A DNA stretch of 64,000 nt, taken from the NCBI GenBank assembly GCA_051313645.2, contig JBNRSN020000007.1, forward strand, positions 56,358,001-56,422,000, in the 5' to 3' direction. Position 1 is the first letter of the stretch; every line of letters begins with the position of its first letter. The translations under genes and the position numbers were made by a program. Positions 1 through 63,298 of the stretch are shown one piece after another. The stretch comes from Centroscyllium fabricii. Its lineage: Eukaryota. The notes beneath the pieces are model-generated. The model worked only from the letters and a program-made list of their open reading frames with translations, was not told where the DNA came from and did no database searches.

Positions 1-500
1 TTAATTTGGACCAAATTCCTCCTTATCTTGCTGAGCTTTGTTTTTTTCAGTCCAGTGTCCTTATTTTTTTGACTTTTTATTTACCTTTTCCAATCTTGCA
101 TGGAACCTAACCATATTGTCGCCGATTGTTCCCCCACATTTGCTTCAATTTTTTTTTGCCCTACTTAATTTCCCATAGTTAATTTAATGCGTTTCTTGTT
201 GGATGAGAAACCTACTGATCTAGGAAGCGGTCCTGGATGCAGTCTTAAAAAAACATTTTGACGACCTGCAATACCATTATTCCAGTTCATCGTGGGATAG
301 TTAAAATCATCCTATATTATTGCCCCGTTGTTGTTGCATATCTCTGAACTGTCAGCAGATCTCCTCTTACTCATGGTGGCCTGTAATTGCACACTGAAAA
401 TTGTAATGATTCCCTTTTTAATGTTAAACTTTGTTTATATGGATTTCGCCTTAACGTAACCCACATGATGTCCTTGAGTTCTTGCATTGTGATGGAATTA

Positions 501-896
501 CATAGAAACATAGAAGATAGGAGCAGGAGTAGGCCATTCGGTCCTTTGAGCCTGCTCCGCCATTCGATGAGATCATGGCTGATCATCCAAACCCAGTACC
601 CCGCCCCTGCCCCCTCCCCATATCACTCGATCCCTATCGAGCCTGCACCGACACATATCCCACCCTATCCCCGTAACCCCACATATTTAATCCCCCTAAC
701 ACTAAGGGTCAATTTATCCTGGCCAATCAACCTAACCCGCACATCTTTGGACTGTGGGAGGAAACCGGAGCACCCGGAGGAAACCCACGCAGACACTGGG
801 AGAATGTGCAAACTCCACACAGATAGTCACCCGAGGCTGGATTTGAACCCAGGGCTCTAGTGCTGTAAGGTAACAGTGCTAGCCACCGTGCCGCCC
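501..896 (-). mobile_element. tRNA-derived V-SINE (HE1-like) with a CR1-type 3' tail; duplicate at 19451..19846
   Basis: On the minus strand: tRNA-like head with A/B boxes (GGCACGGTGGCTAGCACTG...GGTTCAAATCC), V-domain TGTGGAGTTTGCACATTCTCCC...GGTTTCCTCCCACAGTCCAAAGA, and a (TTCTATGT)n tail. Confidence 0.88.
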
Positions 897-1193
897 ACCA
901 TATTCATTAAGAACCATACCCATGTCTTCCACCTCCACACGCAGGTTGCCTTTTTGGTCTCTAATGGACCCTACTCTTTCCTTAGTTATCCTCTTGCCCC
1001 TTGATTTTTCTTGCCAATATTTTTTCATTACCTCTATTTGCTTTCCTAATTTCCTCTTTAATTTCCCCCTGTACTTTCTGTACTCCTCTAGGCTTTCTGC
1101 AGTATTTAGCTCTCGGTATCTGACATAAGCTTCCCTTTTTTGCCTTACCCTACCCTGTATGCCCCAATTCTCTACCTCACCCCCTTTTTTCCA

Positions 1194-1378
1194 TGATGTG
1201 GAGGTGCCGGTGTTGGGACTGGGGTGGACAAATGCAAGAAGTCACACAACACCAGGTTATAGTCCAACAGCTTTATTTTAAATCACAAGCTTTCGGAGCG
1301 CAGCTCCTTCATCAGGTGAAGTGTCGAGATTCATTTAAACATCGCATATATACAGAGAGAGAGAACAATGTGGTCTCT
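1194..1378 (-). mobile_element. Short Penelope-type hammerhead-bearing insert (ribozyme at 1283..1319); duplicate at 20144..20328
   Basis: 12-bp TSD CCCTTTTTTCCA; minus strand reads TCAC-CTGATGA-AGGAGCTGCGCTCC-GAAAGCTT-GTGA. Confidence 0.8.
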
Positions 1379-1921
1379 CCCTTTTTTCCACTTCTCTCTC
1401 TGTCCTGAAAATGATATAACCAGGAATATTAATTCCTGTTCCTGTCCAAATCTATAATGCTGCAATTATAGCTAGTATTTTATATCTCCATGGCCATTAA
1501 CATTCAATCTCTCCAGTTTTGTTTTGAATGCCTTGTGTGTTTACATACATAGCACTCAATCTTGACTCCAATATTTGTAATGTTCATTCTTATTATTTTT
1601 CATAGCTTTCTAGCTTGATATCCATTGCTCCTTCTACAGCAGTGTTTTTACCTCATTAGCTTTTTTCTTTGGTATAATATTTTCTTGCTTTGTTTCAGCC
1701 AAGCCTCCTCCTTTATTAATCATGCTGTTGCTCTCAAGTCTCAAATCTAAACTTTCCCAGCCGAATAACAACACTGAAATAGTACTCCACTCTGATCTAA
1801 TGTAGTCCTCTTTCAGTCTTGGTCAATTAATGATGTTCCTCCCCCCCCCTCACCCACCCCACCCCTACCATCCCTCAAAAATATAGAAAAAACTTTTAGA
1901 ATGCATTGTTCTTTTTTCCAG

Positions 1922-2087
1922 GGATATTTTGAATACAAAGGAATTGGTCGTGGCACAGGCTGGGTCAAGTCAGTCCTTCCAGGAATTTTGCAATGCTACT
2001 TGCCTATCACTTTATGAGGCTAAGCTGCTTAAACCAACTTCATCAGATGATTCCTCAAGATGCAGTATCTGCAATAAGAAAGGAAAG
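1922..2087 (+). pseudogene. ZMYM3: Duplicate copy of ZMYM3 exon 20873..21038 (probably an assembly duplicate)
   Basis: Identical except one synonymous TCA/TCG change; lies out of exon order, upstream of the N gap. Confidence 0.85.
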
Positions 2088-3242
2088 GTGAGAGTGACCA
2101 GGTGGAAAATTTCCCAATTGTGCAAGTGTGTTTTTTAAATAATATTTCTGATGCATGAGGTCACAGCACAAGAGCAGATTCTTATTTCTTTTAAACACAT
2201 ATTTTCCTTTCTACCATCTCTCCCTTAAGTTACACATCCTAATTTCTAATGAAGGTGGAGAATTACTCTTAAGACGAGGAACCTTCAGAAGGAATTGGTG
2301 CTGTTTATACTTGCTTTGCATTTGTGGAGGCATGCACACTAACATTTTCAAGCAAATCATTTTTACACATGCGTACAAGTGGAATCTCAACAGTGGCCTG
2401 GCTGAGGAAATGTTACTTGAACCCTGAGTAGTTGAGGTGCTACAGTTGACCTGGGCATAGTGAGTGTGGAGGAATATCCAGGATTCCCATTCTTGATGGT
2501 TACATTGGACATTTTAATGCTTTTAACTTTATACCAGCTGTTGATGTGAATGTCGTTCATGGTCCAGTAGCCTGTTGACATTTGTGGTCTCGGCTAATCT
2601 GGCCACGAGTAAGGGATGCAAGACTTGCTGGTACCAGTGTAATACTATCCCAGCAAAGGTTGTATGTTCGGGAGAACATTTTTGGAGGCAAAGTACAATG
2701 TGAAGCCGCATGCAACATCCCAGCACCAGGGGATTTAGTTCCTGTTGGTGATGAAATCTTTGCTGAGCAGCGCCACCAGCAGGAGCTAAGTTTTCTATAC
2801 ATGCATTATGCAAGGAAGCTAAACTGGGCTGGATCAAAACGTGCTCATTTTGGCTGCATGCTCTTGGCCTCTTCCCTGCCCCCTGCCCATTCATCCTCCT
2901 CTTCTGTGTCCCCAGTCTACAGCATGTATGCTAAATGTTACTGCATATGTTGGATTAATTTAACACTGCGGAAGGCATTGTACTCCCCCCCCCCCCCCCC
3001 CCCCCCCCAAAGTAATCGTTACGTTTTTGGTTTTTTGAATATTATGCCTGGATTCCACATCATTGACCACTCCTATAATTGGTCTCTTATGGTTCGGAGT
3101 GTTCCTTTACCTGCCTGATACTTGGGTTAGTGATAGCGAGACTCAGGATTGAACAAAAGAACAGTTGCCACTGCGTCCCTGCTTAATGGACTATACCACG
3201 GACCACACTTGATTCTGCTCTCTTCAGTCGGCAGATTGATTA

Positions 3243-3644
3243 CATAGAAACATAGAAACTAGGAGCAGGAGTAGGCCATTCAGCCCTTCGAGCCTGCTCC
3301 GCCATTCAACGAGATCATGGCTGATCATCCAAACCCAGTACCCCGCCCCTGCCCTCTCCCCATATCACTCGATCCCTATCGAGCCTGCACTGACACATAT
3401 CCCACCCTATCCCCGTAACCCTACATATTCAATCCCCTAACACTAAGGGTCAATTTATCATGGCCAATCAACCTAACCCGCACATCTTTGGACTGTGGGA
3501 GGAACCCGGAGCACCCGGAGGAAACCCACGCAGACAGGGGAGAATGTGCAAACTCCACACAGATAGTACCCGAGGCTGGACTTGAACCCGGGTCTCCAGT
3601 GCTGTGAGACAACAGTGCTAACCACTGTGCCACCGTGCCGCCCC
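3243..3644 (-). mobile_element. Full-length HE1-like V-SINE; duplicate at 22185..22589
   Basis: Same architecture; attaca repeated at both junctions. Confidence 0.88.
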
Positions 3645-4935
3645 ATTACAGATGGGGGTTCAGGCTATAAACCTCAGACAATGTATTTCAATATAAATGG
3701 AGCAGGTAAATAAACAGCATTCAGTGAAAATTTGTATTTACAGAAATGTACAGACTTTGTGAAATTTCACAAATATCCAAGACAATGAAGACTCCTCTCC
3801 CAGGGCACATTGAACCTTGAATGGATGTTCACTTCTTGCATGCAAAACACCACTACTGAGTCACAGACTTGGCACGTGCCCTCTTACAAATTTCTGAGGC
3901 AAATTGTGTACAGAAGTGTCATTCCAAATTCCTTTGAAATTGTGCTGAAACATTTTTATTCACACAAACCTGCATTTCCCTTAATTATATCAGATGCTTA
4001 GCCAGCCTTTGTCACTTATAAAAGATGTTTATTCCCCATTTTGAAAATCTGATCGTTCGAACTTAACATTTCGTCCATGCAGTCATCAAAGAAAGAAACT
4101 CTAGCGCCTTTCACAACGCCGGGGACGTCTCAAAAGTGCTTTACAACTAATCAAGTACTTTTCAAGTGCAGTCACTGTTGTAATATAGGAAACGTGGCAT
4201 TCAACAAGCTCCCACAAACAGCAATGAGATAATGACCAGATGATCTGTTTTGGTGATGTTGGTTGAGGGATAAATATTGGAAAGGATGCTAGGACTCCCC
4301 TGCTCCTCTTCGAATAATGTCGTGGAATCTTTTAACGCCCAGCTGAGATGGCAGATGCCTTTGGTTAGTCAGCAATCAAGCTTGTTAATTGACTTTGCCT
4401 GCCACACTCAAATATGTACTTTCTGTGTCTTGCATAAGCATAATTAATCCTGTGTGTACTGTTATTAAGGAATTGAAATCAATTTCTTTGATCTTTGAGA
4501 TCTTTGTAGTGTGAAAGAAACTTATTTATTTGTGGAATGTTAATTTAACTTGAAGCTATTCTGAGCCTGCTGCTTGATTGTTGCCACCCAATCTAGTAAA
4601 TTTAAGCTCCTCAATGACAATCTTGTTCTCACTTTTTACCATTATTGGTAACACTGGTGGAGATGGTGTGTGTGTGTGTTGCAGCAATGCAACACGTTTG
4701 CATGCCTGCCATTTGCGTCCTTCAGCATGCCAGTACAATTCTCAAAGGCAAAATCCTCTCTGGAATCCAGTGTGGTCTGGATGAGTTGGCAATGTCGAGG
4801 TCCTGAGCACGTGAATGGCAAGTGGTGCTCGAGGCTGCAGATAATGAAGAGGTGGGCTACAACTGCTTCCCTCCCTCAAGTTTGTATTACATATTCACAT
4901 AATGTTGCATAAAACTATTATACTGTTCCCTCTAG

Positions 4936-5147
4936 ATTCTACATGAAGTCAGTAATGGAAATGTGGTCCATCGGTGTGCAGCAACGCCTGTTTCAGCAAG
5001 TTCAGAGCAAGTAATGGCCTGAAGACCAACTGTTGTGATAATTGCGGGGTTTATTTTTACAACCGAGGGTTTATGCTTCAGTACCTCTATCATGAAGGGC
5101 AACAAAGGAGGTTTTGCAACACAGGCTGTTTGAATATGTATAAAAAG
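4936..5147 (+). pseudogene. ZMYM3: Duplicate copy of ZMYM3 exon 23884..24096 with a 1-nt deletion (frameshift)
   Basis: CATCGGTGTGC here versus CATCGGCTGTGC in the other copy; 212 versus 213 nt. Confidence 0.85.
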
Positions 5148-6939
5148 GTAAATTTATTTGTTGTAGTTTTTTTTCCACTCCCCACATCCCTCATTTAAAA
5201 AAAAGCTTATTTTCCTGTGTCTCTTTCTGTACCAAATTCTTTTTCTCACTTGGGCAGCAGGCAGGCAAGTGACTGCTCCCAGGCTTCAGTGGCGGTCAGC
5301 AACCAACAACTTGGCGTTGCAGAAGGGAAGACTTGCATTTATGTAGTACTTTTTCATATGAACGTTTCAAAACATTTCACACAGTAAGTTACTTTCGGGG
5401 TGAACAAAATCCCACAACGGCAATGAATTAAATTCCAGTTAATCTGTTTTGGTGGTGTTGCTTGAGACGGGAAGCCAAGACATCGTGAAATTCCTGCTCT
5501 TCAAATACGACCACGGAAACGAGTGTTGGCGTGGGGCTTGAACCCACAACATTTTGACCCATGCTGACTCTTGAACACTCCGGGCATGATTTGCCCAGAT
5601 TTTGTTCGTCTTCCACTCCTCCCTTACTGAGCAAGTGTAACTGGTAGAAGTGTCACCTGTAATAATGGAAAAAGAAAGGCCAGTCAGCATTGGAAGGGAG
5701 AAAAAGTAAGCACCTATAATTTGGATTATAGGTTTTAGTAAAGGTTAATGGTGGGCATTACCCCGAGGTTGTAAAATACAGTAAAACCTCATCCTATCAA
5801 TTATTCAAACCAGGACAATCAACCAACTGTACTGCTTGGCTGGTGGTGCTGTTGCATATGAGCCCTTGGTATCCGGTGATAGGTGCGGTCTTGAATACTT
5901 GCAGGCCTTTTCCTCACAGCGTTAGCTGTTCAAGTATAAATTAGTACATTTTATTTTCATTTGTGGTGACGTCCCAATCATGGAAATGAGCACAGGCAGC
6001 AAAAAAACAAGAGTTGGGTTCAAACTTCCTGCCGTTCTAAAAATGTGAATTTTATTTCTGGGGCTTGATTGCAAATCGCTCTAATACTTCCTCTTGACTT
6101 CTGCAGCGGGTTGGGGGGGGGGGGGGGGTCAATTTCACACTAATGTGGCCAGAGTGCTGTCGGGTTTTTCACCTCCATGAGTATAAAACAGACTCTCTCT
6201 CAACTTGCAGCAAGAACCTATCGTTGCACACCACCTTATGCACAACATGGTTAGGCCAGTCTGCTTTGAGCCGAGTGAATTGTGCACAACTTGCAAGGGT
6301 TGGTGCCCCACTGTCTTTTCATTTGGTTGCATATTAATATGTTCAGTTGCTCTAGTTTGTCTTGACTGAATTAAAAAAATACTTCCCCCCGCCCCCCCCC
6401 CCCCACAATCCTCTGCCATCCTACTTTGCTACTGTCCCAGGCTTGAATCTCCTGGAAGGGCCCATCGAGGCACCAATGTGAATGCTTTACAAGCAGCAAT
6501 CCCAATGACCTGTCCTCTTTTGTTTACCTTTCCGTCCAGTGTAGCTGCTGAGAGTGAAGCTTACCCATCCGCCTGCCACTGCCCCCTTCGACTCTACACG
6601 CTGCCCTTCGGTGATGTCATCGAAGACACAACATCAAGTTGCACATGTACGCTGGGTGCACCCAGCTTCACCTCACCACCACCGTTTGACCCCCTCCACT
6701 GGCTGTGTTGTCGGACTGCTTGTCCAACATCCAGTCTTGGATGAGCCACAATTTCTTCCGATTAAACATTGGGCAGACCGAAGTCATTGTCTTCAGGCCT
6801 ACCACAAACTTTGTTCCCTTGCCATTGATTCCAACCCTCCCTGGCCGCTGCCTCAGGCTGAACTAGACTGCTGCAATCTCGGCTTCCTATTTGATCCCGA
6901 GCTGAGCTTCAGAACCGATATCCTTTCCATCACAAAAGA

Positions 6940-7139
6940 NNNNNNNNNNNNNNNNNNNNNNNNNNNNNNNNNNNNNNNNNNNNNNNNNNNNNNNNNNNNN
7001 NNNNNNNNNNNNNNNNNNNNNNNNNNNNNNNNNNNNNNNNNNNNNNNNNNNNNNNNNNNNNNNNNNNNNNNNNNNNNNNNNNNNNNNNNNNNNNNNNNNN
7101 NNNNNNNNNNNNNNNNNNNNNNNNNNNNNNNNNNNNNNN
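6940..7139. other. Assembly gap (200 N)
   Basis: Run of exactly 200 N. Confidence 0.99.
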
Positions 7140-8859
7140 TGCACATACTCATGTTGCACGTATTTGGTTGTGTGTCTATGAAATGGAAAATGGTCCATTC
7201 CGATCACTAGCATCCATAACTTTAATGAGTACAAAATTTATATTAACAAACCTCTTACATAAAACAACCCTTGAAGATACTGACTTGGCATAAGAATAAA
7301 AGAAAAAGGGTGACTCAAACGTGGCTAACAAGGGAAATTAGCATAAGATCCAAGGAGAGGGCATATAAATTGGCCAGAAAAAGCGGTAACCCTGAGGATT
7401 GGGAGCAGTTTAGGATTCAACAAAGGGATTAATTAAGAAGGGGAAAATAGAATATGAAAGTAAGCTTTCAGGGAACATAAAAACTGATGAGCTTTTATAG
7501 ATTCGTGAAGAGAAAAAGAGTAGTGAAATCAAGTGTAGGTCCCTTGCAGTCAGAAGCAGGAGAAGTTATAATGGGGAACAAAGAAATGGCAGACCAATGA
7601 AATGCATATTTTGGTTCTGTCTTCAAAAAGGAGGATACAAATAACCTCCCAGAGATGTTGGAGAACATAGGGTCTGATGAAAGGGAGGAACTGAAAGAAA
7701 TTAGTATTTGCAGGGAAATGGTGTTCGGGAAACTGACTGGATTAAAGGCCGATAAGTCCCCAGGGCCGGATAATCTACATCCTACGGTACTTAAGGAAGT
7801 GGCCCTAGAAATAGTAGATGCATTACTGATCATCTTTCAACATTTGCTGGAATCTGGAACTGTACCCATGGATTGGAGGGTGGCTAATGGTACCCCACTA
7901 TTCAAAAAGGGTGGTAGAGAGAAAGCGGGTGATTACAGACATCGGTCGTGGGGAAAATGCTAGAGTCCATTGTAAAGGATGTAATAGCTGAGCACTTGGA
8001 AAACAGTGACAGGATCGGACAAAGTCAACATGGATTTATTTACAAAAGGTAAATCGTGCTTGACTAATCTACTGGAGCTTTTCGAGGATATAACGGGGAA
8101 AATAGATGAGGGAGAACCAGTAGATGTGGTGTATTTGGACTTTCAAAAGGCTTTCGATAAGGTCCCGCATAAGAGATTAGTGTGTCAAGTTAAGGCACAT
8201 GGGATTGGGGGAAAGGTATTGACTTGGATAGAAAACTGGTTGACGGACAGAAAGCAGAGAGTAGGAATTAACGGGTCTTTTTCCGAGTGGCAGGCAGTGA
8301 CTAGTGGGGTACTGCAGGGATTGGTGCTAGGACCCCAGCTATTCGCGATATATATTAATGATCTAGATAAGGGAACTAGTTCTAATATCTCCAAGTTTGC
8401 AGACAACACAAAGCTGGGTGGGCGTGTGTGCTGCGAGGAGGATACCGAGAATCTCCTGGATGATTTGGACAGGTTGGGTGATTGGGCAGAAGCGTGGGCA
8501 GATGCAATATAACGTGGATAAATGCGAGGTTATCCACTTTGGTGTCAAAAACAGAAAGGCAGACTTTTATCTGAATGGAAATAGATTGGGAGACGGGGGA
8601 AGTGCAACGAGACCTGGGTGTCCTTGTGCACCAGTCGTTGAAGATAAGCATGCAGGTGCAGCAGGCGGTGAAGAAGGCTAATGGTATGTTGGCCTTCATA
8701 GTGAAATGGTTTAAGTACAGGAACAAGGATGTCTTGCTGCAGTTGTACAGGGCCTTGGTGAGACCACACCTTAATGTGGAGGTGCCGGTGTTGGACTGGG
8801 GTGGACAAATGCAAAAAGTCACACAACACCAGTTTTATAGTCCAACGTTTTATTTTAAA

Positions 8860-8896
8860 TCACAAGCTTTCGGAGCGCTGCTCCTTCCTCAGGTGA
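8860..8896 (-). ncRNA. Minimal type I hammerhead ribozyme motif
   Basis: Exact reverse complement of 9272..9308. Confidence 0.75.
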
Positions 8897-9271
8897 CAGA
8901 CAGAAGAGACTGATTTAAAGATCACACATATCGGAGGAAGGGAGAAATCCGACCTCTTCCCCATGAGCACACAAGCAATTTTGAGTAAGAAAAATCATGG
9001 TTTTTATAAAAAAAGTAATACTGTGGGACTTACAGCAGACTAGCGTTAGGCCCTGTGACTGCACCCCTTTGATGTGTTTTTTTTTGCTTTAAAAAGGGGG
9101 AAAAAAATCATTCTGTGTGTTTTGAGCATGTGACCACCCTTGCAATTGTGCCCCATTGTTCGCAGATTGAGGTGTTAAGGTATGCTAATATGCTTGTGTG
9201 CTCTAGGGGAAGAGGTCGGATTTCTCCCTTCCTCCGATATGTGTGATCTTTAAATCAGTCTCTTCTGTCTG

Positions 9272-9308
9272 TCACCTGAGGAAGGAGCAGCGCTCCGAAA
9301 GCTTGTGA
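9272..9308 (+). ncRNA. Minimal type I hammerhead ribozyme motif
   Basis: TCAC-CTGAGGA-A-GGAGC(AGC)GCTCC-GAAA-GC-TT-GTGA: stem I, conserved core, stem II and palindromic stem III. Confidence 0.75.
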
Positions 9309-9472
9309 TTTAAAATAAAACGTTGGACTATAAACCTGGTGTTGTGTGACTTTTTGCATTTGACCACACCTTGAGTATTGTGTGCAGTTTTGGTCGCCTT
9401 ATCTGAGGCAGGATGTTCTTGCCATGGAAGGCGTTTAGCGAAGGTTCACAAGGCTGATACCTGGGATGGCAG

Positions 9473-9865
9473 GATATTATTAGACTGCCGGGGGGGTGGT
9501 GCTGGTGGAGATTATTAGACTGGTGGGGGGGGGGGGTGTGCAGGCGGAGTTTTTTAGACTGACCGGCAGCGGTGCTGTCTTCCGTCTGTGCCTCGTCTTC
9601 CGTCGGCGAATGATCGCCGCATGCGCCGATTCACTGGCCATGCCGCGGCCCGTCGGCAATTGATCTGCGCATGCGCCTATTCGCAGATCAATTGCCGACG
9701 GTCCGCGGCAGGGTCTGTGAATCGGCGCATGCGCCGATCATTCGCCGACGGTCCGCGGCAGGGTCTGTGAATCGGCGCATGCGCGGATTCTCAGAACTTC
9801 CGCGGACCGGTAAAACTGTCCCGCGGACCGGTGCCGGTCCGCGGACCGGCGGTTGGGGAACACTG
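9473..9865 (+). mobile_element. Right end of a hAT-Charlie (MER1-like) MITE with internal tandem repeats
   Basis: GCGGACCGG...GGTTGGGGAACACTG terminus followed by GTGTACAG (a hAT-type target); the left end is not seen. Confidence 0.55.
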
Positions 9866-10889
9866 GTGTACAGTACCACAGGCATGATCAGCCTTACAGT
9901 ATCATCCAAATAATGATCCATGTGTAAGCCTTGCTGGCGAGCTTTGGCAGGCTCTTTGACCATGGAGGACGGTACGCCTGAGCCTTATCCTGTCCTCCCT
10001 GACAGAATAACTGCAGGTGTTTATGGGATCAGGCTGCACAAGTTGGCCCCCATTGATTGCTCTTAACCCTGTCTCCCTGCCCTCTCGCCATATCCTTCAA
10101 TTCCCTTGTTTGCGATACATACATCTCTCTCATGAATTTGGACTGTTTGCTTCAATGGCTTTCCCTGATGATTTTAAATATGTCTTACAACTATTACACG
10201 TTAATGAATTGAAATAGGCTGCTGAGGGGAAGAATAACCTTTGTGTATACACTTATAACTTTTGAACAGTTAAATTTAATATAAAATGATATAATAAAAT
10301 TAAGAAGCTTGCCAAAAACCTGTGTATTGAAAGTTAAAATGAAAGGGAATAGTTTTTTACCCTATTCTCCCTTGTGAAATATTTCTGCATGTTTCCTAGA
10401 TTCTGAACTCTTAATCAATTTCACTGGATGGAATCCAAACCAGAACTCTGGCCATTTCCGCCGGCCCCTTTGCCATCACACTAAGCTATCATGCGAACAT
10501 CTGTCCTGTAAGCTTTTTTCCAGAGAGAGCGAGAACCTTTGGGTTCCTTCTTATCTTTTTAAGTCCATTGTCTCTAGTTTAAATTGCTAAGATCCCAGGA
10601 TTGGGTCTTGGTTTCATGGCAGTTCTTGATTGGCTTTCTTTTGAACATGTGTCTGTCTGCAGCGGCTGGTGCCATTTCTTGATTAAGTTGATTGTTAACA
10701 CCTTTTAATGGCTCCTGAGGTTCGATGGGTTTTTGATGCTGTCTCTGTGGGGGTTATCTTGTTATGCGGGTTTCTTTTGTTAAGTTTTGCCGTTGCTTTG
10801 AGCAGGGCGATCCACACACATCAAATTCATCTTTATTACATACATCTTGTATTAATAGTCTCGAGTCCATCACAGGTACAAAACATATA

Positions 10890-11420
10890 CAGGTTGTGCG
10901 CCGAAAATCCGTGTCCCGAATAGCCGGCAGCTTCAGTCTGCCGGCACAAATTGCCCAGACTGCACTGCGCATGCGCAAGATGGCCGCCACCATCGTGGCT
11001 TCGGCGAATGATCTGCGCATGCGCCGAGCGCATGCGCAGATCATTCAAAACAGCTGCAGGTGCTTTGAATGATCTGCGCATGCGTCGCCGGACGGTTAGC
11101 GCATGCGCAGATAATTCAATACGGCCGCCGGTTATTTTCCCGACAGCTGAGCCCCGTGACTGAGGCGGACAGTCACTAGGCAACAGCTGTCAGCCTGAGT
11201 CCGGCTCGGCGGCAGCAGCAACCCGAAAGGCGATGGAGAGGGAACGCGGACCCGTGCCCGATCTGCGCATGCGCGCGCCAGCCAATCCCAATATTGTGCG
11301 CATGCGCGCGGCCATTTTGAATGGTGCGCATGCGCAGTGTCCAACCTCGTTCTCCCGGTTTTTTCTGTTTCCCGGCACGGGCCTGGTCCCGCCCGTGGCG
11401 GATTAATGGTGCACAACCTG
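10890..11420 (+). mobile_element. Tigger/pogo-like MITE, CpG-rich
   Basis: TA|CAGGTTGTGC...GCACAACCTG|TA terminal inverted repeats (TIRs) with a TA TSD. Confidence 0.85.
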
Positions 11421-11493
11421 TATTTTTATTCTTACAGTCCCCAGTTCTATGCTGCAAGGTATAAACCTAATGTTTTTGTTTCTGCTTCATCAG

Positions 11494-11567
11494 TTAAAGT
11501 GGACAAATCGTCTTCCTGTGGAACTGATGCAGTTAGTAAAGATGCTGAAAAAACAGATAAAGATACG
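11494..11567 (+). CDS. ZMYM3: Probable ZMYM3 N-terminal-region exon ([25 protein letters not shown])
   Basis: tttgtttctgcttcatcag acceptor, ACG|gtattt donor, phase 1 to 0, joins the next exon in frame. The sequence is poorly conserved, so homology is not recognisable. Confidence 0.6.
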
Positions 11568-14500
11568 GTATTTGTGTTTTATTTTCTTCTTTTCTCACCA
11601 TCACTCTGCAGTTAAAACATTTCTCACCTATTCAGTAACATTATGCGTGGTAATAATGATGCACGATGCTGTGATTATGTTGCAGGAAAGTAAGGAAGGA
11701 GCCCAAAAGTCCCCCAAAACAGAATATTGTTCATCCGCTAACAAAACAAAAGGTAAGTGAAGCAATTTGCGTTCTTGTGTTGCTCCGTGTGTAAAGAACA
11801 TGCCGGAGCCTTTTATGAAGGAGACACAAGCATCAAGTTAAGGAAATTGTGGCCAGAGGCCAGTGACCTCGTAGAAGGAATATATTTTTAAGGGGGCGTT
11901 TGAAGACGGCGAGAGGGGTAGTAAACCAACATGGGTCTGGAAGAGAATTTGAAAAGTTAAAGTCTTCATGACTGGAAGATCAGCCTCTTGTGTATTTGGG
12001 GAATGGCGAACAAACAGTTCTGGTGAGTCCATGGAAGGGCTGCTACTTGGGATTTGAGAAGCTTATCCACAAGTTGAAAATAGAGCCGAGGATCTTCAAA
12101 AATTGATCTGTTAAGGCATAGGGAGCTACTGGAGCTGGGCTGGATGGACATGTAGAAATTTGAATGGGAAGAGTAATCAGTCTGCAGTTATGAAATAATT
12201 GAATATGTGAGACTAAAGAGGCCTGCAGTAAGAGCATTTGATGAGTTGACCCTTGAAACGATGATGGCATGGATGTGGAGTGGGAAAGTGTATCTTGGGC
12301 ATTGGTCCAATTCAATTCAATTCAAGTTTTATTGTCATTGCAGAGTACTAGTACAATACAACGAGACGAAGACTCGACTCTCCCGAGAGTAGTGCCAATA
12401 AATTACATGCAAATTGCATACAGTAAAGTACATTATCAGGCGTGCAGGTACCGGAGTTTATTTTTAGAGTTCAGGAGGCTGACAGCCCTGGGGAAGAAGC
12501 TGTTCTTAAAATCTAGACGTGCGGGTGCGAATTGATCTGTAGCATCTCCCGGAGGGCAGGGGGGCGAACAGACTGTGGCTGGGGTGTGTGGGGTCTTTAA
12601 TAATGTTCAGAGACCTCCGTAAGCAGCGTTTGAGGTAGATGCTTTCCATTAACGGTCCATAGGTGGTCTTGTCAATAACCCAGATGACGTAATAAAGTTC
12701 ATCTGTTTACGTGGCCTGAATGAGAGGACAGGGAGTTGATTGAAGCATTGCTGGTGCGATGTCGGTGTTGGTAAGAAACAAGTCAGATTTCGGTGTACAT
12801 TGTCGGGCAGATACTCTCCTGAGCATTTAGGCAAAAAGGATTGCCTGTGCAAAGTGGATGGAGGAAAACTAGGTGCAAGGTCGCACATCTGTAATGGCCA
12901 GGCTGATTTTTTTTTTAAATGGTAGAAAATCAGGTGCCTTGTTACGGGGGTGTTATCCTCCCTGCCCAGATTTCCTCTGCTCTGCCTCAGTAATCCTGTG
13001 CACCCAAATGCAAAAGGAGGACCTGTTTTGTGTGTGAGTTTTATTGTTTTGATTTGCTTTCTTCGCTCTTCCTTCAGTAAAGGATAATTCCACCACGACG
13101 GCTGATATTAAGGAGGAAGACTATGTTTCCCGGCGGCCAAGGCGTACCACCAGATTGTCTCTACAAGCAGCTCAAGCCCAGGCTCAAGCTCAAGCCGAAG
13201 CTCAAGCCGAAGCTCAAGCCGAAGCCCAAGCCCAAACCCAATCTCCTCGTCCACAAAGGTCTTCACGATCCTTGGTAAAAGTAACGTGTGCTCATTGCAA
13301 AAAGCCCCTGCAAAAGGGACAAACTGCGTACCAGAGAAAAGGGGCGCCTCAGCTCTTCTGCTCTTCCACATGCCTCACAACCTATTCTCAGAAACCATCA
13401 TCTACCAAGATATGCACATTCTGCAACAAGTAAGCATTTTCTCTTTTTGTATAAACGTTGACTTAAGGATACAAGGGTCAGACTTGCAAGCCAGTGTAGG
13501 TTTTTCCATCAAGTCTTGATATCATCCTTCGACTCAAAGACGATTGACTTGTACTACAGTCTTTTTTTTTCCATCTTTGGCGACAAAAGTGAACAGTAAG
13601 GAGGGAGAAACCCTGAGTAGTTTCACCTCCCACAGTTGAGGGATTCTGAAGTTAGCTAATTTAGTACAAATGGGGATCAGATTTAAAGATCTCCGCTTTC
13701 TGGTCTATGTGGCTCAGGTGGAAGCTAAAGTACCAATGGAAAGGTACACTGGGAAATTAAAATATTTCATCTCAGTACTGAATCTGGATTGTAACTTGTT
13801 CCTGCAATGTCGTGTGTGTGTGTGAGATGTGTTTCTTACTTTTAGATTGTTTTGGGAGAAGTAAGGGAATGAAAGTACTTAGAAACATAGATAGGAGCAG
13901 GAGTAGGCCATTCGGCCCTTCGAGCCTGCTCCGCCATTCAATGAGATCATGGCTGATCATCCAAACCCAGCACCCCGCCCCCACCCTCCCCATATCCCTC
14001 GATCCCTATCGAGCCTGCACCGACACATATCCCACCCTATCCCTGTGCAGTCCTACATTATTGTGCTACTAATTCACACCTCTGGAGATGTCCTTTCAGC
14101 AAAAAAGGACCAAGAGATTGATTAAGAGGGGAAAAATAGAGTGAGAGTAAACTTGCAAGGAACATAAAAGCGGACTGTAAAAGCTTCTACAAGTATGTAA
14201 AAAGAAAAAGATTAGTGAAGACAAATCCTTTCAGTCAAATGGGAGAATTTATAATGGGGAACAAGGAAATGGAGGAGCAATTAAACAAACACTTGGGTTC
14301 TGTTTTCACAGAAGAGGACACAAATAACTTCCCAGAAATGCTAAGGAACCAAGGGCCTAGTGAGAAGGAGGAATTAAAGGAAATTAGTATTTGTAAAAAA
14401 ATAGTGCTGGAGAAATTAATGGGACTGAAAGCTGATAAATCCCCAGGGCCTGATAATCTGCATCCCAGAGTACTAAAAGAGGTAGCTATGGAAATGGTGG

Positions 14501-17500
14501 ATGCATTGGTTGTCATCTTCCAAAATTCTATAGAATTTTGGAGCAGTTCCTGCAGATTGGAGGATGGCCAATGTAACCCCACTATTTAAAAAAGGAGGGC
14601 GAGTTAAAACTGGGTATTACAGACTGGTTAGCCTAACATCAGTAGTAGAGTCTATTATAAAGGATGTGATAATAGGACACTTTGAAAATATCAACAGGAT
14701 TAGACAAAGTCAACATAGATTTACAAAAGGAAAATCGTGTTTGACAAACCTCCTGGAGTTTTTTGAGGACGTAACTGGTAGAATAGATAAGGGAGAACCA
14801 GTGGATGTGGTGTATTTGGATTTTGATTTTCAGAAGGCCTTTGATAAGGTCCCACAGAAGAGGTTAGTGTGCAAAATTAAAGCACATGGGATTGGGGGTA
14901 ATATACTGGCATGGATTGAAAATTGGTTAACAGACAGGAAACAGAGAGTAGGAATAAATGGGTCTTTTTCGGGGTGGCAGGTGGTGACTAGTGGGGTACC
15001 GCAGGGATCAGTATTTGGGCCCCAGCTATTCACAATATATAAATGATTTGGATGAGAAAAGCAAATGTAATATTTCCAAGTTTGCTGACGACACAAAACC
15101 AGGTGGGATTGTGGGTTGTGAGAAGGATGCAAAGATGCTTCAAGGTGATTTAGACAAGTTGAGTGAGTGGGCAAATACATGGCAGTTGCAGTATAACGTG
15201 GATAAATGTGAAGTTATCCACTTGGGTAGAAAAACAGAAAGGCAGAGTATTATTTAAATGGTGATAGATTGGGAAATGTTGATGTACAAAGGGACCTGCA
15301 GGTGCAGAAAGCAGTTTGGAAGGCAAATAGTATGTTGGCCTTCATTGCAAGAGGATTTGTGTACAGGAGCAAGGATGTCTTACTACAGTTATACAGGGCC
15401 TTGGTGAGACCACACCTGGAGTAGTGTGTAGTTTTGGTCTCCTTACCTAAGAAAGGATATATTTGCCATCGAGTGAGTGCAGCAAAGGTTCACCAGACTG
15501 ATTCCTGGGATGACAGGACTGTCGTATGAGGAAAGATTGGGTCGACTCGGCCTGTATTTCAATTTCAATTTTATTTGTCACATGTACTAAATACAACAAG
15601 TGTAATCTAGACAGTGAAATGCTTTTTTCGCGGTTCGAACGCACCGCGCAACGAAGAACACTAAGCTGCCGACACGCCCGGAGCCCGTGAGACGGCAGCC
15701 ACCTCACCAGCGCCATCAATCACAAGTCCGCTCTGGCCTCTCCTGCACTTAAAGTTCTTGAAGTTCTTTCACTCGCTGACCTTCTTCTGTTGTTTCACTC
15801 ACTCGTATTCACTAGAGTTTAGAAGAATGAGTGAGGATCTCATTGAAACGTCTAACATTTTGACCGGGCTAGACAGACTGGATGCAGGCAGGATGTTATC
15901 CCTGGCTGCGGGGGGGGGGGGGGTCTATAATGAAGGGTCACAGTCTCGGGATACTGGGTAGGACATTTAGGACTGAGATAAGGAGAAGTTTCTTCACTCA
16001 GCGGGTGGTGAACCTGTGGAATTCTCTACCACAGAAGGCTGTGGAGGCAAAGTTACTGAATACATTTAAGAAGGAGATAAATAGATTTCTGGACACAAAA
16101 GGCATCAAGGGGTATGGGGAGAGAGCGGGAATATGGTATAGTATTGAGCTAGAGGATCAGCCATGATATTGAATGGCAGAGCAGGCTCAAAGGGCTGAAT
16201 GGCCTACTCCTCCTATTTTTCTATCTTCTATGTTTGAGAGTGCCATTGTATGGTTTCTTTCTGAAAGTTAGAAAGTTCCTCAAAAGATCTGTTTTAAATC
16301 TAACACCGCCTGACCAGACCACCTACTTTGACATTTTTTTGCAAAACTGGCATGTCAAGTGGATGTCGAAAAACCTTGATAGTCTACTCAGAATTCAAGA
16401 AATCCTCAAGTTTCACGTGAAAGGCTGTTGCACATTTTAAAGCAATAGGCAACCTAAGTACAAGCTGGAAGTGAATAAAGAACTGGCTGAATGAGAGGAA
16501 GCAGCAGATACTAGTTAGGGGAGTGATGTTGAGCTGGGCAGGTGTAAACATAGAAACATAAACATAGAAACATAGAAACTAGGAGCAGGAGTAGGCCATT
16601 CGGCCCTTCGAGCCTGCTCCGCCATTTTTTAAAATGAGATCATGGCTGATCATCCAAACCCAGTACATTGACTCTGTGTCTCTCTCCACGGATGTTGCCA
16701 TGCCTACTGAGATTTTCCAGTGTTTTCTGTTGTTATTTTAGTTCTGTACCAATCTTTTCTTCAATGCTAACTGTGACACCGTTTAATTTGCTGGGAACAT
16801 CCATTCCTAAACATTGACAGGCCAAATTGGGGGGCGGACTGTGGATCTAATTACAGGAAACTCTCGTTTAAACGGCACCTAAACTAGAACGAAAGACTGT
16901 CGGGCCTCCGCCCTGACCGCCTGAGGTCCTCCAGCACATTGGCGATTATCCGGTGCCAGATACCAAAGAGTTTCCTGTACCGGGATGCATCGGCTCAATT
17001 TGCCTGGGGAAAATCTCTTAAGGCATGACCTTCCCTGTTAAGACATTTTGTTAAGACGTCCTAACTTTGAAGGGCACCCCCACTTGTTTTTCCCTCCCTC
17101 CCTGACTCCCGTGCAGTGTTAACTTTTAGCACACCCCAGAACCCAGTTTGTTGACACCCAAAGACAACCCAGAACGAGGAAAAGACATACCAACACTCCC
17201 CATGCGACCCAAGAGACAACCAGGTGGGTGGCAAATGCCGCGTCACTCGAAGAATGAAGACGAGCTTACAAGGGAACAGCTGACACGGGAACAGCTGACA
17301 GAGGTGCTGTGATCTTCATTCGGGCATTCTGCACACACCGCTGGCGACTGACCAAGTAGTAACTGAGGATGAGGAGGGCGGAGGTACCTGCATGGGAACA
17401 GAGGCTTAAATGACCAGGACAGACACAACAAAGTGAGCATTACCCATGAGTGCCGCACTGCTGGTTTACCCTAATCTGACAGGTATTCCATCTCAACAGC

Positions 17501-20500
17501 CAGGCCACCAATCAGAAGCTGGCAGGATCCAAATCCACATCCTAACGGTTCAGCTTACTGCTTGGATCTGGCGCTGGCGCCCGTGAGTAACACCCACTCT
17601 GATCCATTTATCCTGGGAGCCGGAGAGTCTGTTCGCTTGCAGGTACGGTCCGCCCCTCTCACCCTGAGTACCAGTTGGACGGTGTCCAGTAGTGCGTGGA
17701 GGATGTCGGAATGAAAAATTCCCTACAAAAAGTGTACTCAGTGGATCCCCCAGGGATTGGTGCTGCGACCCCTAAATGACCTGGATTCAGAAAATCAATA
17801 TAAGCTGGTCAAGTTCACAGATGATACGAACTCCAAACCATCGTCAACACCTTCATGGGTCTTGCACTAAACATCCGTAAGACAAAGGTCCTCTACCTTT
17901 GATAAATTGACCCTTAGTGTTAGGGGGATTGAATGTGTGGGGTTACGGGGATAGGGTGGGATATGTGTCGGTGCAGGCTCGATAGGGATCGAGGGATATG
18001 GGGACAAAGCAGGGACAGGGTGCTGGGTTTGGATGATCAGCCATGATCTCATTGAATGGCGGAAGAGGCTCGAAGGGCCGAATGGCCTACTCCTGCTCCT
18101 ATGTTCTATGTTTCTAAACTGGGAGGGGGAGTCACCGTGGAATTGGATGTTGCTACCAGTGAATTACAGAAGGACCTGGGCAATATTTGCAATAGGCAGA
18201 ACTATGTGACGGATTAAATTCCATTAGATAAGTGCGAAGTCTTGCACATTGGAAGGTAAAAATGGGAAATGTAATGAAAGTAGTCTAACTCGGGAGAGGT
18301 TGAAAAAGACCTGTAAGTGATGGTTGATTCTACACTGACCATGTCTAGTCACTGTAGAGCAGCAACTAACCAAGCAAACAAAATGCTGAACCATATGACC
18401 ACATTGATGGGGTTTAAGCCTAAGCCACCGTGATGAAGTTGTACAGTGCTTTGAGCAGGATGTACCTTAAACACTGCTTTCAGTTTTGGTTGCTGAGTGG
18501 GAACCATTCAAGCCATGCAGCTAGTCTAGAAATGGATGATGAGATTGATCCCTAGTGTTAAAGGACTGAGTTATGAGGACTCTTTAACCTTGAAATGATC
18601 ACCTCTAGTATTGTTAGCACGATCCTTATCATTACCTCCTTTTTTGGAGAGATTAGACTGCTCTCTCCCTTGTATATATGCTGTCTTTAAATGAACTTCT
18701 CTTGCACCTGAGGAAGGAGCAGCGCTCCGAACGCTTGTGATTTCAAATAAAACTGTTGGACTATAACCTGGTGTTGTGTGACTTCTTGCATTTCTCCTTT
18801 TTAAAATTTCAGTTGAGGTTTAATCTCTCTTTATCCATGGAACTCTCATCCTGTTTTTGCCCTACAGAATATATTTATTTTGTATTCTATAAATTTTCTT
18901 TAAAATTTTCCCACCGCTGATCTGTTGACTTTGCTAGCTTTTCTGTCCAATTAATTTGGACCAAATTCCTCCTTATCTTGCTGAGCTTTGTTTTTTTCAG
19001 TCCAGTGTCCTTATTTTTTTGACTTTTTATTTACCTTTTCCAATCTTGCATGGAACCTAACCATATTGTCGCCGATTGTTCCCCCACATTTGCTTCAATT
19101 TTTTTTTGCCCTACTTAATTTCCCATAGTTAATTTAATGCGTTTCTTGTTGGATGAGAAACCTACTGATCTAGGAAGCGGTCCTGGATGCAGTCTTAAAA
19201 AAACATTTTGACGACCTGCAATACCATTATTCCAGTTCATCGTGGGATAGTTAAAATCATCCTATATTATTGCCCCGTTGTTGTTGCATATCTCTGAACT
19301 GTCAGCAGATGATCTCTTACTCATGGTGGCCTGTAATTGCACACTGAAAATTGTAATGATTCCCTTTTTAATGTTAAACTTTGTTTATATGGATTTCGCC
19401 TTAACGTAACCCACATGATGTCCTTGAGTTCTTGCATTGTGATGGAATTACATAGAAACATAGAAGATAGGAGCAGGAGTAGGCCATTCGGTCCTTTGAG
19501 CCTGCTCCGCCATTCGATGAGATCATGGCTGATCATCCAAACCCAGTACCCCGCCCCTGCCCCCTCCCCATATCACTCGATCCCTATCGAGCCTGCACCG
19601 ACACATATCCCACCCTATCCCCGTAACCCCACATATTTAATCCCCCTAACACTAAGGGTCAATTTATCCTGGCCAATCAACCTAACCCGCACATCTTTGG
19701 ACTGTGGGAGGAAACCGGAGCACCCGGAGGAAACCCACGCAGACACTGGGAGAATGTGCAAACTCCACACAGATAGTCACCCGAGGCTGGATTTGAACCC
19801 AGGGCTCTAGTGCTGTAAGGTAACAGTGCTAGCCACCGTGCCGCCCACCATATTCATTAAGAACCATACCCATGTCTTCCACCTCCACACGCAGGTTACC
19901 TTTTTGGTCTCTAATGGACCCTACTCTTTCCTTAGTTATCCTCTTGCCCCTTGATTTTTCTTGCCAATATTTTTTCATTACCTCTATTTGCTTTCCTAAT
20001 TTCCTCTTTAATTTCCCCCTGTACTTTCTGTACTCCTCTAGGCTTTCTGCAGTATTTAGCTCTCGGTATCTGACATAAGCTTCCCTTTTTTGCCTTACCC
20101 TACCCTGTATGCCCCAATTCTCTACCTCACCCCCTTTTTTCCATGATGTGGAGGTGCCGGTGTTGGGACTGGGGTGGACAAATGCAAGAAGTCACACAAC
20201 ACCAGGTTATAGTCCAACAGCTTTATTTTAAATCACAAGCTTTCGGAGCGCAGCTCCTTCATCAGGTGAAGTGTCGAGATTCATTTAAACATCGCATATA
20301 TACAGAGAGAGAGAACAATGTGGTCTCTCCCTTTTTTCCACTTCTCTCTCTGTCCTGAAAATGATATAACCAGGAATATTAATTCCTGTTCCTGTCCAAA
20401 TCTATAATGCTGCAATTATAGCTAGTATTTTATATCTCCATGGCCATTAACATTCAATCTCTCCAGTTTTGTTTTGAATGCCTTGTGTGTTTACATACAT

Positions 20501-62323: not shown

Positions 62324-62910
62324 TGTATTTAAGCATATTTTGTTTGTATTTCAGTTTGTAAAGCATAAACTGCTTTCATTTGGGAGTCTCTTGCACATCT
62401 TCACTACCATGGGAAGAGGGAAATGACATTGAGCTGAAAACCTTAGTCTCATAGTGTATTTCTTAGTTTTATTTATACCCAGAAATATTCCTTTTAAATG
62501 GGATGGAAGGTAATTCTGTGAGTAAATAGAAATATTCACAGGTACTTCATCAGAGTTCCTTCCTTACCTGCAGTTGTTTGAGGTTTACATTCTGAGTCCT
62601 TATTTTAAACCATTCCTTCTAAACAATTTGTTTGGTGCCCTGTGGACGCAAAGAACTGGAGTGCTAACAGACGGGGGAGGGGGTTTCTGGTCCTCTTCTG
62701 TCTGCTGTGTTGAATGTAGCTGGATTTTGAGTGTTTGGGGTCCTTTACGTTAAGAAGATACAATCAGAAAGGGGAGAAGCCCAGTAACAGTTTAATATTT
62801 CACCCATACAACTGAAGGGTGGTTGTAGATAAAATCGGTGCCTGCCCCAATTATGAAATTGGGCTACCTTCAGACCATGATTGACTGTAAAATAATCATT
62901 GATGTTAAAA

Positions 62911-63298
62911 CATAGAAACATAGAAGATAGGAGCAGGAGTAGGCCATTCGGCCCTTCGAGCCTGCTCCGCCATTCAATGAGATCATGGCTGATCATCCAA
63001 ACCCAGCACCCCGCCCCTGCCTTGTCCCCAGATCCCTCTCAAACATGCACCGACCCATATCCTGCCCTATCCCCGTAACCCCACATACTCAATCCCCCTA
63101 ACACTAAGGGTCAATTTATCCTGGCCAATCAACCTAACCCGCACATCTTTGGACTGTGGGAGGAAACCGGAGCACCCGGAGGAAACCCACGCAGACACGG
63201 GGAGAATGTGCAAACTCCACACAGATAGTACCTGAGGCTGGATTTGAACCCGGGTCTCCAGTGCTGTGAGGCAACAGTGCTAACCACTGTGCCACCGT
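62911..63298 (-). mobile_element. HE1-like V-SINE
   Basis: Same architecture as the other copies. Confidence 0.88.

What the first reader, a model, noticed from the sequence alone, without database searches (positions are those of the whole stretch)
1194..20328. A dispersed family of ~150-190-bp hammerhead cassettes with variable TSDs at pyrimidine/T-rich targets
Seen: homologous short inserts at 1194-1378 and its duplicate 20144-20328 (minus, TSD CCCTTTTTTCCA), 18646-18793 (plus, CTCCTTTTT flanks), 8773-9361 and 35029 onward. All keep the ribozyme region plus a downstream AATAAA..GTTGGACTATAACCTGGTGTTGTGTGAC. The core varies at the permitted N (CUGAUGA, CUGAGGA, CUGACGA) and in the stem II loop, while stem II pairing is kept (GGAGC/GCTCC, or GGGGC/GCTCC with a G-U pair). 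One copy has GAAA changed to GAAC. Inference: selection maintained ribozyme structure in the source elements, and insertion is by target-primed reverse transcription with a CCTTTT-like preference.
Basis: partly seen in the sequence, partly recalled or inferred. Interest (0 to 1): 0.7.

Follow-up and report, generated by a model that had tools for sequence, protein, structure and literature searches.

The report
Truncated shark Penelope retrotransposon ends
These short ribozyme-bearing inserts are the broken-off tail ends of a very common jumping gene of a known kind (a Penelope-like retroelement) in what is likely a shark genome, so they are mostly ordinary, although their junctions likely record how such elements cut and copy themselves into DNA.

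Summary
The inserts are real but are not a free-standing ribozyme cassette family. They are 5'-truncated 3' ends (pseudo-LTR with a minimal type I hammerhead motif, plus an optional ~35-nt tail) of an autonomous Penelope-like element. Full copies elsewhere in the genome carry an open 890-aa telomerase-like RT plus GIY-YIG-type endonuclease frame; window copy D still holds that frame's last codons. The window has four independent insertions, not five: 1194 and 20144 are one locus in an 18,950-bp duplication ending at an N gap. Evenly spaced sampling gave 32 insertions in 1.2 Mb (order 10^5 per genome). The CCTTTT preference is refuted (7 of 56 sites, background 9%); targets are AT-rich 11-13-bp duplications with G/GRCA beside each inferred nick. 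Variation sits at N7, loop II and one G-U wobble, with no compensatory pair. Two side results: 31 of 45 arm 5' ends fall in or just above the hammerhead, and 7 of 53 head-to-head pairs have arms from different subfamilies, which favours two-template priming over pure snap-back. Cleavage and expression are untested. The scan had already reached the Penelope reading on other DNA of this genome.

The parts
1194..1378 (-). Copy A: 5'-truncated pLTR end with hammerhead motif and tail; ends just before the element's ATG
1283..1319 (-). Minimal type I hammerhead motif of A (stem I TCAC/GTGA, CUGAUGA, extra A, 5-bp stem II, GAAA, palindromic AGCT, predicted cut between 1287 and 1286)
   Evidence: topology from PMC4209133 (passages read)
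1194..1229 (-). AC-rich ~35-nt tail of A, absent from B, D and the plus arm of C
1182..1193 (.). Left copy of 12-bp target duplication of A (right copy 1379-1390), in a decayed LINE remnant
20144..20328 (-). Copy A': the same insertion inside the 18,950-bp duplicated block, not an independent event
18646..18793 (+). Copy B: tail-less pLTR end; core damaged (GAAC at 18729-18732); 9-bp duplication 18636-18644 / 18794-18802
8773..8964 (-). Copy C, tail-bearing arm (hammerhead motif 8860-8896)
8975..9361 (+). Copy C, inverted tail-less arm with an internal jump in the 3' UTR (hammerhead motif 9272-9308)
8762..8772 (.). Left copy of 11-bp target duplication of C (right copy 9362-9372), in a LINE RT remnant whose paralogs show the empty site
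35029..35389 (-). Copy D, long arm: tail-less pLTR, whole 3' UTR and the last codons and stop (35366-35389) of the RT-endonuclease frame; hammerhead motif 35081-35118 damaged in helix III and stem I
35392..35504 (+). Copy D, short inverted arm (frame end and start of 3' UTR), forming a palindrome with the long arm
6940..7139 (.). 200-N assembly gap at which the first copy of the duplicated block ends

Best explanation
The inserts are 5'-truncated 3' ends of an autonomous endonuclease-bearing Penelope-like retrotransposon, likely of the Neptune type, and were likely laid down by target-primed reverse transcription. Shown: full copies have pLTR - 890-aa RT/endonuclease frame - pLTR, with the hammerhead motif about 120 to 87 nt before the ATG; short copies share two 3' ends, at the ATG and about 35 nt before it; head-to-head pairs with a tail on one arm are the commonest form; duplications are mostly 11-13 bp and AT-rich with G or GRCA just outside each end. 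Inferred: the element's protein makes a two-strand cut staggered by about 12 nt; each 3' overhang primes antisense cDNA, helped by 1-3 nt of microhomology, one at the ATG and one at about -35; synthesis usually stops on entering or just after passing the hammerhead region; the two cDNAs are then joined head to head, or one alone is kept. The RNA copied was mostly uncut at the ribozyme. The ribozyme motif would work only as a dimer and is likely a passenger in these stubs.
For: Fixed 3' end and variable 5' extension in 30 loci. Upstream sequence turns into an endonuclease and RT frame. Open 890-aa frames in 3 of 6 long loci fetched; L098 has two identical 166-bp direct pLTRs and an inverted upstream copy at 99.4%. 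RVT_1 E=1.5e-9; YIDD, DKG, C-X4-C-X2-C and VYLI..WYIG motifs; C-terminal 143 aa 41% identical to a turtle protein whose same region passes the GIY-YIG cut-off; model pLDDT 91.6 whose eight best structural matches are telomerase RTs. Window copies map onto the UTR, pLTR and frame end of these elements. 15 of 32 insertions in evenly spaced sampling are head-to-head. Second end lies at -32 to -42 in 44 of 46. 56 of 143 tail ends have an exact 10-16-bp duplication, swapped-flank control never above 7 in 300. GRCA follows the inferred nick in 13 of 56 and 6 of 55 against 0.85%. Microhomology 1.8 nt against 0.3. 43 of 45 arms extend past the predicted cut site. Layout matches PMC3846280, PMC8557442, PMC4209133; two-strand nicking, two RT start sites and ribozyme-independent insertion match PMC11167929.
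Against: Pfam GIY-YIG does not hit this protein itself. No tree against named Neptune, Nematis or Poseidon references was built. Only 5 of 38 single-arm copies have an exact duplication of 11 bp or more and 25 of 38 have none of 7 or more, and window copy D has none, so many insertions were not resolved cleanly or have decayed. The in vitro element of PMC11167929 is of another clade, has its hammerhead over the start codon and was reported to start without homology to the target. About 111 of the tail ends analysed came from identity-ranked searches, not random sampling. Most pairs have concordant arms, which fits snap-back equally well.
Confidence: 0.9

Rival explanations
1. A non-autonomous retrozyme or SINE-like family: a 150-190-nt unit cut out by its own hammerheads, circularised and mobilised in trans.
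For: 22 of 32 sampled insertions are 250 bp or shorter; the motif is a type I hammerhead; retrozymes derived from pLTRs are described in vertebrates, including one cartilaginous fish (bioRxiv 10.64898/2026.07.22.740005, parts 1-3 read).
Against: No fixed 5' end; no head-to-tail array at any of the copies in the window; ends lie at the ATG and at -35, not at the predicted cut site; copies run on into the RT-endonuclease frame; many arms break inside the ribozyme.
Confidence: 0.04
2. Same element, but the inverted arm arises by self-priming (snap-back) on one template, as proposed in PMC3846280, not by a second priming event.
For: In 32 short pairs the two 5' ends differ by a median of 5 nt against 16 when permuted (0 of 5000 as close); several junctions are perfect palindromes on AGCT or AAGCTT; discordance at diagnostic sites (22 of 191) is far below random pairing (0.42).
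Against: 7 of 53 pairs differ at two or more diagnostic sites against 0.13 expected; six insertions inspected by eye (L021, L199, L205, L220, L239, L125) have arms of different known stem II loop variants inside one 12-15-bp duplication; the second end is narrow (-32 to -42) and shows target microhomology (mean 1.2 nt, no control run); long pairs are not symmetric (median difference 79 nt).
Confidence: 0.3
3. The ribozyme motif is kept because it acts at these loci (for example cutting the host ZMYM-type pre-mRNA in whose intron they likely lie).
For: 145 of 216 arms keep core and stem II; the window holds a zf-FCS exon at 13053-13430.
Against: 2 of 4 window loci are damaged in the core or helix III; helix III has no loop, so a monomer cannot fold it; the active dimer scores -19.1 kcal/mol against -21.6 for two monomers and -28.9 for an inactive pairing (nearest-neighbour model only); head-to-head arms would pair with each other; density fits a neutral repeat of order 10^5 copies.
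Confidence: 0.04

Closest known systems
Minimal type I hammerheads (min-HHR) in pLTRs of metazoan Penelope-like elements (Cervera and De la Pena 2014, PMC4209133; abstract, results, discussion and part of methods read)
   Same: Short helix I, unpaired nucleotide between 9 and 10.1, G10.1-C11.1, palindromic 15.2-16.2 without loop 3; thousands of single motifs from truncated elements; pairs 100-700 bp apart on opposite strands.
   Different: Stem II is 5 bp, not the 7-8 bp given for the Schistosoma families; H17 is U; sharks are not named in the parts read.
Neptune-type EN+ Penelope-like elements (Craig et al. 2021, PMC8557442; passages read)
   Same: One frame with RT then C-terminal GIY-YIG-type domain, CX2-5CxxC linker, partial tandems, inverted 5'-truncated copy, 30-40-bp tail on one end.
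   Different: Clade not confirmed by a tree (Nematis shares the linker); frame has about 150 extra helical N-terminal residues in the model, not compared with references.
Adineta vaga Penelope insertions with inverted pLTRs (Arkhipova et al. 2013, PMC3846280; passages read)
   Same: Head-to-head pLTRs, palindromes at the junction, tail on one arm, short duplications, AT-rich targets.
   Different: Duplications 8-10 bp there, 11-13 bp here; tail lies inside the frame there, ends at the ATG here; that paper reads the palindromes as self-priming, whereas some pairs here have arms from two subfamilies.
PAc (Poseidon of Anolis carolinensis) in vitro (Frangieh et al. 2024, PMC11167929; main text read)
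   Same: Both strands nicked and extended, two RT start sites that bound the tail in an AC-rich stretch, AT-rich targets, uncut RNA as main substrate.
   Different: Other clade; hammerhead overlaps the start codon and RT starts 111-118 nt into the frame; 5'-ATT-3' nick motif and no target homology reported, against G/GRCA and 1-3 nt microhomology here.
Animal non-LTR retrozymes (bioRxiv 10.64898/2026.07.22.740005, parts 1-3 read; PMC7229834, search listing only)
   Same: Small, non-coding, type I hammerhead, pLTR-related.
   Different: Defined by head-to-tail tandem units each with a hammerhead; the window copies are dispersed, 5'-variable and head-to-head.

Membership tests
EN+ Penelope-like element | Single frame with telomerase-like RT | tested here: met
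   890-aa open frame in L098, L099, L102; RVT_1 above cut-off; eight best structural matches are TERTs
EN+ Penelope-like element | C-terminal GIY-YIG endonuclease | tested here: met
   Motif at 790-808; 41% identity over 143 aa to P0014, which passes PF01541 there. Pfam does not hit the query itself
EN+ Penelope-like element | Direct pLTRs from partial tandems; inverted 5'-truncated copy | tested here: met
   L098 1808-1973 = 5024-5189; inverted copy upstream; 15 of 32 sampled insertions head-to-head
EN+ Penelope-like element | 30-40-bp tail on one end | tested here: met
   Ends at the ATG and at -32 to -42 in 44 of 46 inverted arms
EN+ Penelope-like element | Transposition or enzyme activity | not testable with these tools
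   Only open frames and 99-100% identical repeats suggest recent activity
Neptune clade | CX2-5CxxC zinc-finger-like linker between RT and endonuclease | tested here: met
   C-X4-C-X2-C at residue 752; feature from PMC8557442; shared with Nematis
Neptune clade | RT groups with named Neptune references in a tree | not tested
   No named reference set was held
Minimal type I hammerhead ribozyme | CUGANGA, N9.1, stem II with G10.1-C11.1, GAAA, UH, short helix I | tested here: met
   Sequence and folds of A and C; 145 of 216 arms intact by pattern; damaged in B and D
Minimal type I hammerhead ribozyme | Compensatory base-pair changes | tested here: inconclusive
   0 two-sided changes at 11 pairs in 216 arms of one genome; one common A-U/G-U change; little divergence to draw on
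Minimal type I hammerhead ribozyme | Self-cleavage as a dimer | not testable with these tools
   Needs in vitro assay; energy model does not favour the active dimer
Non-LTR retrozyme | Head-to-tail tandem units, each with a hammerhead | tested here: not met
   No such array among 20 tandem rows in the window; copies single or head-to-head
Non-LTR retrozyme | Fixed unit length bounded by cut sites | tested here: not met
   Arm 5' ends range from -58 to -2145; none of 45 at -90
Non-LTR retrozyme | Unit-length circular RNA | not testable with these tools
   No raw RNA reads were offered

The most novel reading that the evidence does not exclude
The stubs are a genome-scale footprint of the unsolved Penelope insertion cycle: a symmetric cut staggered by about 12 nt with G/GRCA beside each nick, priming of both overhangs on two separate RNA templates at two start sites, and a termination zone that switches on at the hammerhead, because either the RNA starts there, or hammerhead-to-hammerhead pairing holds the two templates together and makes the two cDNAs stop and join there. 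The ribozyme would then serve as an RNA dimer link as well as, or in place of, a cutter, and head-to-head Penelope inversions would not need antisense self-priming.
Probability: 0.3. Interest if true: 0.6.

Novelty: new member of a known kind. Interest (0 to 1): 0.27.

Why it matters
As a discovery of a ribozyme cassette family it matters little: hammerheads in Penelope pLTRs and their many truncated copies have been in print since 2014. Its use is as data. With of order 10^5 copies, intact parents and subfamily-marked arms, this genome allows counts that bear on an open question named in PMC3846280 (how head-to-head Penelope inversions form) and on the role of the hammerhead, which PMC11167929 found dispensable for insertion in vitro. 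The target motif and the 11-13-bp stagger give direct predictions for the endonuclease. The window also flags a probable false duplication of at least 17 kb in the assembly.

Tried and rejected
Rfam at gathering thresholds: 0 matches in the window; not taken as evidence against, since minimal motifs lack helix III. Folding of the motif alone: z -1.0 to -1.9 in four window copies; motif plus tail z -2.7 in A but -0.03 in L098, so no support from stability. Alternative tail hairpins were seen in the folds but not tested. Two genome searches with 88-nt tails of other subfamilies returned nothing (common words are skipped), so those subfamilies are under-sampled. First empty-site test failed for A (0 of 8) and B (0 of 6) for lack of paralogs, then was repeated with fetched paralogs. 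Site -75 looked strongly discordant between arms but was dropped because the search queries selected main arms for rare letters there; pair L230 (-210) was dropped as misaligned; L228 passes the count but is weak by eye. A peak of 5' ends at the predicted cut (-90) was looked for: none of 45 arms in the even sample; a few arms in the ranked set end within 3 nt of it (for example L240, L198, L196, L015) and cannot be told from microhomology joins. No RNA holder listed; contigs of four runs from other organisms cover the pLTR end and frame start but show no splice joint and cannot show RNA ends. Sequence search of solved structures gave only a weak maturase RT hit (E=0.008). Lunse et al. on dimeric cleavage was not held and is known only through PMC6765202 (passages). 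Searches for a prior shark description ('shark, genome, Penelope, Neptune': 1 unrelated paper) and for twin priming in Penelope (2 unrelated papers; 19 papers with 3 of 4 terms, 15 listed, only PMC3846280 on topic) found none; Repbase and Dfam could not be searched, and supplements of the papers were not opened, so the family may already be named there.
Full report
Observation. The five places named hold homologous sequence (E 1e-32 to 1e-50 between different copies) and the details given for A and B are right. Three corrections follow. A and its twin at 20144 are one insertion: 1-6939 equals 18951-25899 at 99.1%, the 10 kb before the window equals 8817-18950 at 98.8-99.6%, and the first block stops at a 200-N gap. 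An assembly overlap of two haplotypes is the likely cause (inference); a real tandem duplication is not excluded. C and D are longer, head-to-head structures of 589 and 476 bp. The flanking repeats of A and B are pyrimidine-rich on the + strand, but the elements point in opposite directions, so on the element's strand one is purine-rich. The window thus holds four independent events.

Identity. A search of the own genome (7.2 Gb) with copy A gave 1288 candidates, 40 scored, 30 fetched. All share the 3' end within a few bases; 27 of the 28 outside the window share upstream sequence with another locus, for 27 to 935 bases. Upstream lies a 3' UTR and then a protein frame. Walking twice more reached copies in which the hammerhead and tail sit directly before an ATG. 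Of six long loci fetched, three have an open 890-aa frame; L098 has identical 166-bp direct repeats on both sides and an inverted copy upstream. The protein has RVT_1, YIDD, DKG, a C-X4-C-X2-C linker and a GIY-YIG-like motif. Pfam's GIY-YIG model misses it, but its last 143 aligned residues are 41% identical to P0014, which passes that model in the same region. A model from 60 sequences (pLDDT 91.6) has telomerase RTs as its eight best matches. The best named relatives among 1036 hits (120 listed) are from sharks (78-90%) and turtles (42-49%), so the host is likely a shark. Window copy D contains the last codons and stop of this frame, and C contains UTR pieces. By the features in PMC8557442 (passages read) this is an EN+ Penelope-like element of Neptune type; no tree was built.

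Ribozyme. The motif is TCAC, CUGANGA, one extra A, a 5-bp stem II, GAAA, GC, UU, GTGA. This is the minimal type I form of PMC4209133: extra base at 9.1, G10.1-C11.1, palindromic 15.2-16.2 and no loop 3, so helix III can form only between two molecules. In 216 arms spanning it (chosen by BLAST to one copy, so biased to conservation) departures from the majority are 54% at N7, 24% in loop II, 6.3% in stem II, 3.7% in the core, 48% in seven upstream sites and 3.1% in 44 downstream sites; stem II has A-U in 142 and G-U in 70; no pair shows a two-sided change (stem I counts are inflated by misalignment of one subfamily). The pattern is what structure allows, but it is not covariation, and the whole last 125 nt is conserved, not the ribozyme alone. 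Cleavage was not tested.

Abundance and form. 120 evenly spaced 10-kb stretches on large contigs held 32 insertions in 1.2 Mb: 27 per Mb (Poisson 18-38), about 1% of the DNA, of order 10^5 per genome; the count is patchy (27 in the first 800 kb, 5 in the last 400 kb). 15 are head-to-head, 9 single with tail, 6 single without, 2 cut by a stretch edge; 22 are 250 bp or shorter. With -1 set just before the start region, the motif spans -123 to -87 and the predicted cut precedes -90. Of 45 arms, 31 have their 5' end between -93 and -141, 12 are longer and 2 shorter (single-arm ends may be underestimated where a subfamily had no reference). Thus 43 of 45 were copied from RNA not cut at that ribozyme, in line with PMC11167929.

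Targets. Of 143 tail ends not followed by the frame (from ranked searches, even sampling and the window), 56 have an exact 10-16-bp duplication; 43 are 11-13 bp; a swapped-flank control gave at most 7 in 300 trials. Head-to-head pairs carry one of 11 bp or more in 38 of 54, single arms in 5 of 38. Duplication interiors are 73% A+T against 50% background; CCTTT occurs at 7 of 56 sites (background 9.1%, p=0.35), CTTTT at 7 (p=0.21), TTTT at 23 (26%, p=0.014); 3 are 75% pyrimidine and 4 are 75% purine. Just outside each end, read 5' to 3' from the inferred nick, G is first in 32 of 56 and 32 of 55, and GRCA stands in 13 of 56 and 6 of 55 against 0.85%. The duplication shares a mean 1.8 nt with the element's continuation, against 0.3 in control. 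Empty sites: C 18 of 31 alignments span the join, B 2 of 13 paralogs, A 4 of 18 diverged paralogs show a single T-tract.

Mechanism. Both ends of a head-to-head insertion are element 3' ends read antisense from a target 3' end, one at the ATG and one at -32 to -42 (44 of 46). The simplest reading is a staggered two-strand cut with both overhangs priming, which PMC11167929 showed in vitro for another clade (both strands nicked and extended, two start sites bounding the tail). PMC3846280 instead read junction palindromes as self-priming and left the question open. The data are mixed. For snap-back: short pairs are symmetric (median 5 nt against 16 permuted, n=32) and mostly concordant (22 of 191 diagnostic calls differ; random pairing 0.42). 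Against it as the only route: 7 of 53 pairs differ at two or more of five diagnostic sites (0.13 expected at 2% per site, 18 if random; one pair and one site dropped, see Tried and rejected), and six inspected insertions have arms with different known loop II variants inside a single 12-15-bp duplication. Later gene conversion is an untested alternative for those. Why arms stop at the hammerhead is unexplained; a transcript start near -120 to -140 (a TATA-like run lies near -155 in copy A's subfamily, seen in the sequence) or stalling at paired ribozymes are the two ideas, both inference.

Novelty and verdict. Every defining feature is described in PMC4209133, PMC8557442 and PMC3846280. My paper searches found no description of this shark family, of the G/GRCA flanks, or of mixed-subfamily arms, but repeat databases and supplements were not seen. 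Earlier notes of this scan on other DNA of the same genome (17 fit, 8 shown; none by sequence) reach the same Penelope reading; I had stated mine before opening them. Verdict: real, a new member of a known kind, interest 0.27, carried mostly by the insertion-mechanism side results.

Noticed in passing
window 1-6939 and upstream 10 kb (L066) against 8817-25899: Tandem duplication with period 18,950 bp at 98.8-99.6% identity, at least 17 kb long, ending at a 200-N gap and including a zinc-finger exon; likely a false haplotype duplication in the assembly.
   Followed up: partly
window 13053-13430 (+): Exon-like frame with an MYM-type zinc finger (PF06467, E=5e-7); 51706-52074 reads like a further exon of the same gene. 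The insertions likely lie in introns of a ZMYM-family gene.
   Followed up: partly
L095:843-1964 / L103:2052-3173 (+): A piece that reads like the 5' part of a spliced host mRNA (resembles eIF3 subunit I; name recalled, not searched) runs into an inverted pLTR and the element's frame; possible capture of host mRNA beside or within a Penelope insertion.
   Followed up: no
window 35480-35504: The short inverted arm of D ends at a UTR stretch (GCATTTGAC) that resembles the usual second end (GCATTTGTC); possible cryptic start site.
   Followed up: no
L003, L187, L242: Head-to-head insertions with a tail on both arms, unlike the usual one-sided tail.
   Followed up: no
L216 and L223; L193 and L228: Junctions recur at the same place in unrelated loci: on the AAGCTT palindrome of helix III (2 of 54 pairs) and at -128/-118 (2 of 54).
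   Followed up: partly
window 497-895, 3239-3634, 19447-19845, 22181-22579, 62910-63298: A ~400-bp SINE-like repeat at 91-94% identity, and many LINE RT remnants across the window.
   Followed up: no
window 1194-1265 (-): The tail's AGTCCAACACCGG can pair with either of two overlapping upstream stretches (GTTGGACT or CTGGTGTTG); folds of A and L098 pick different ones.
   Followed up: no
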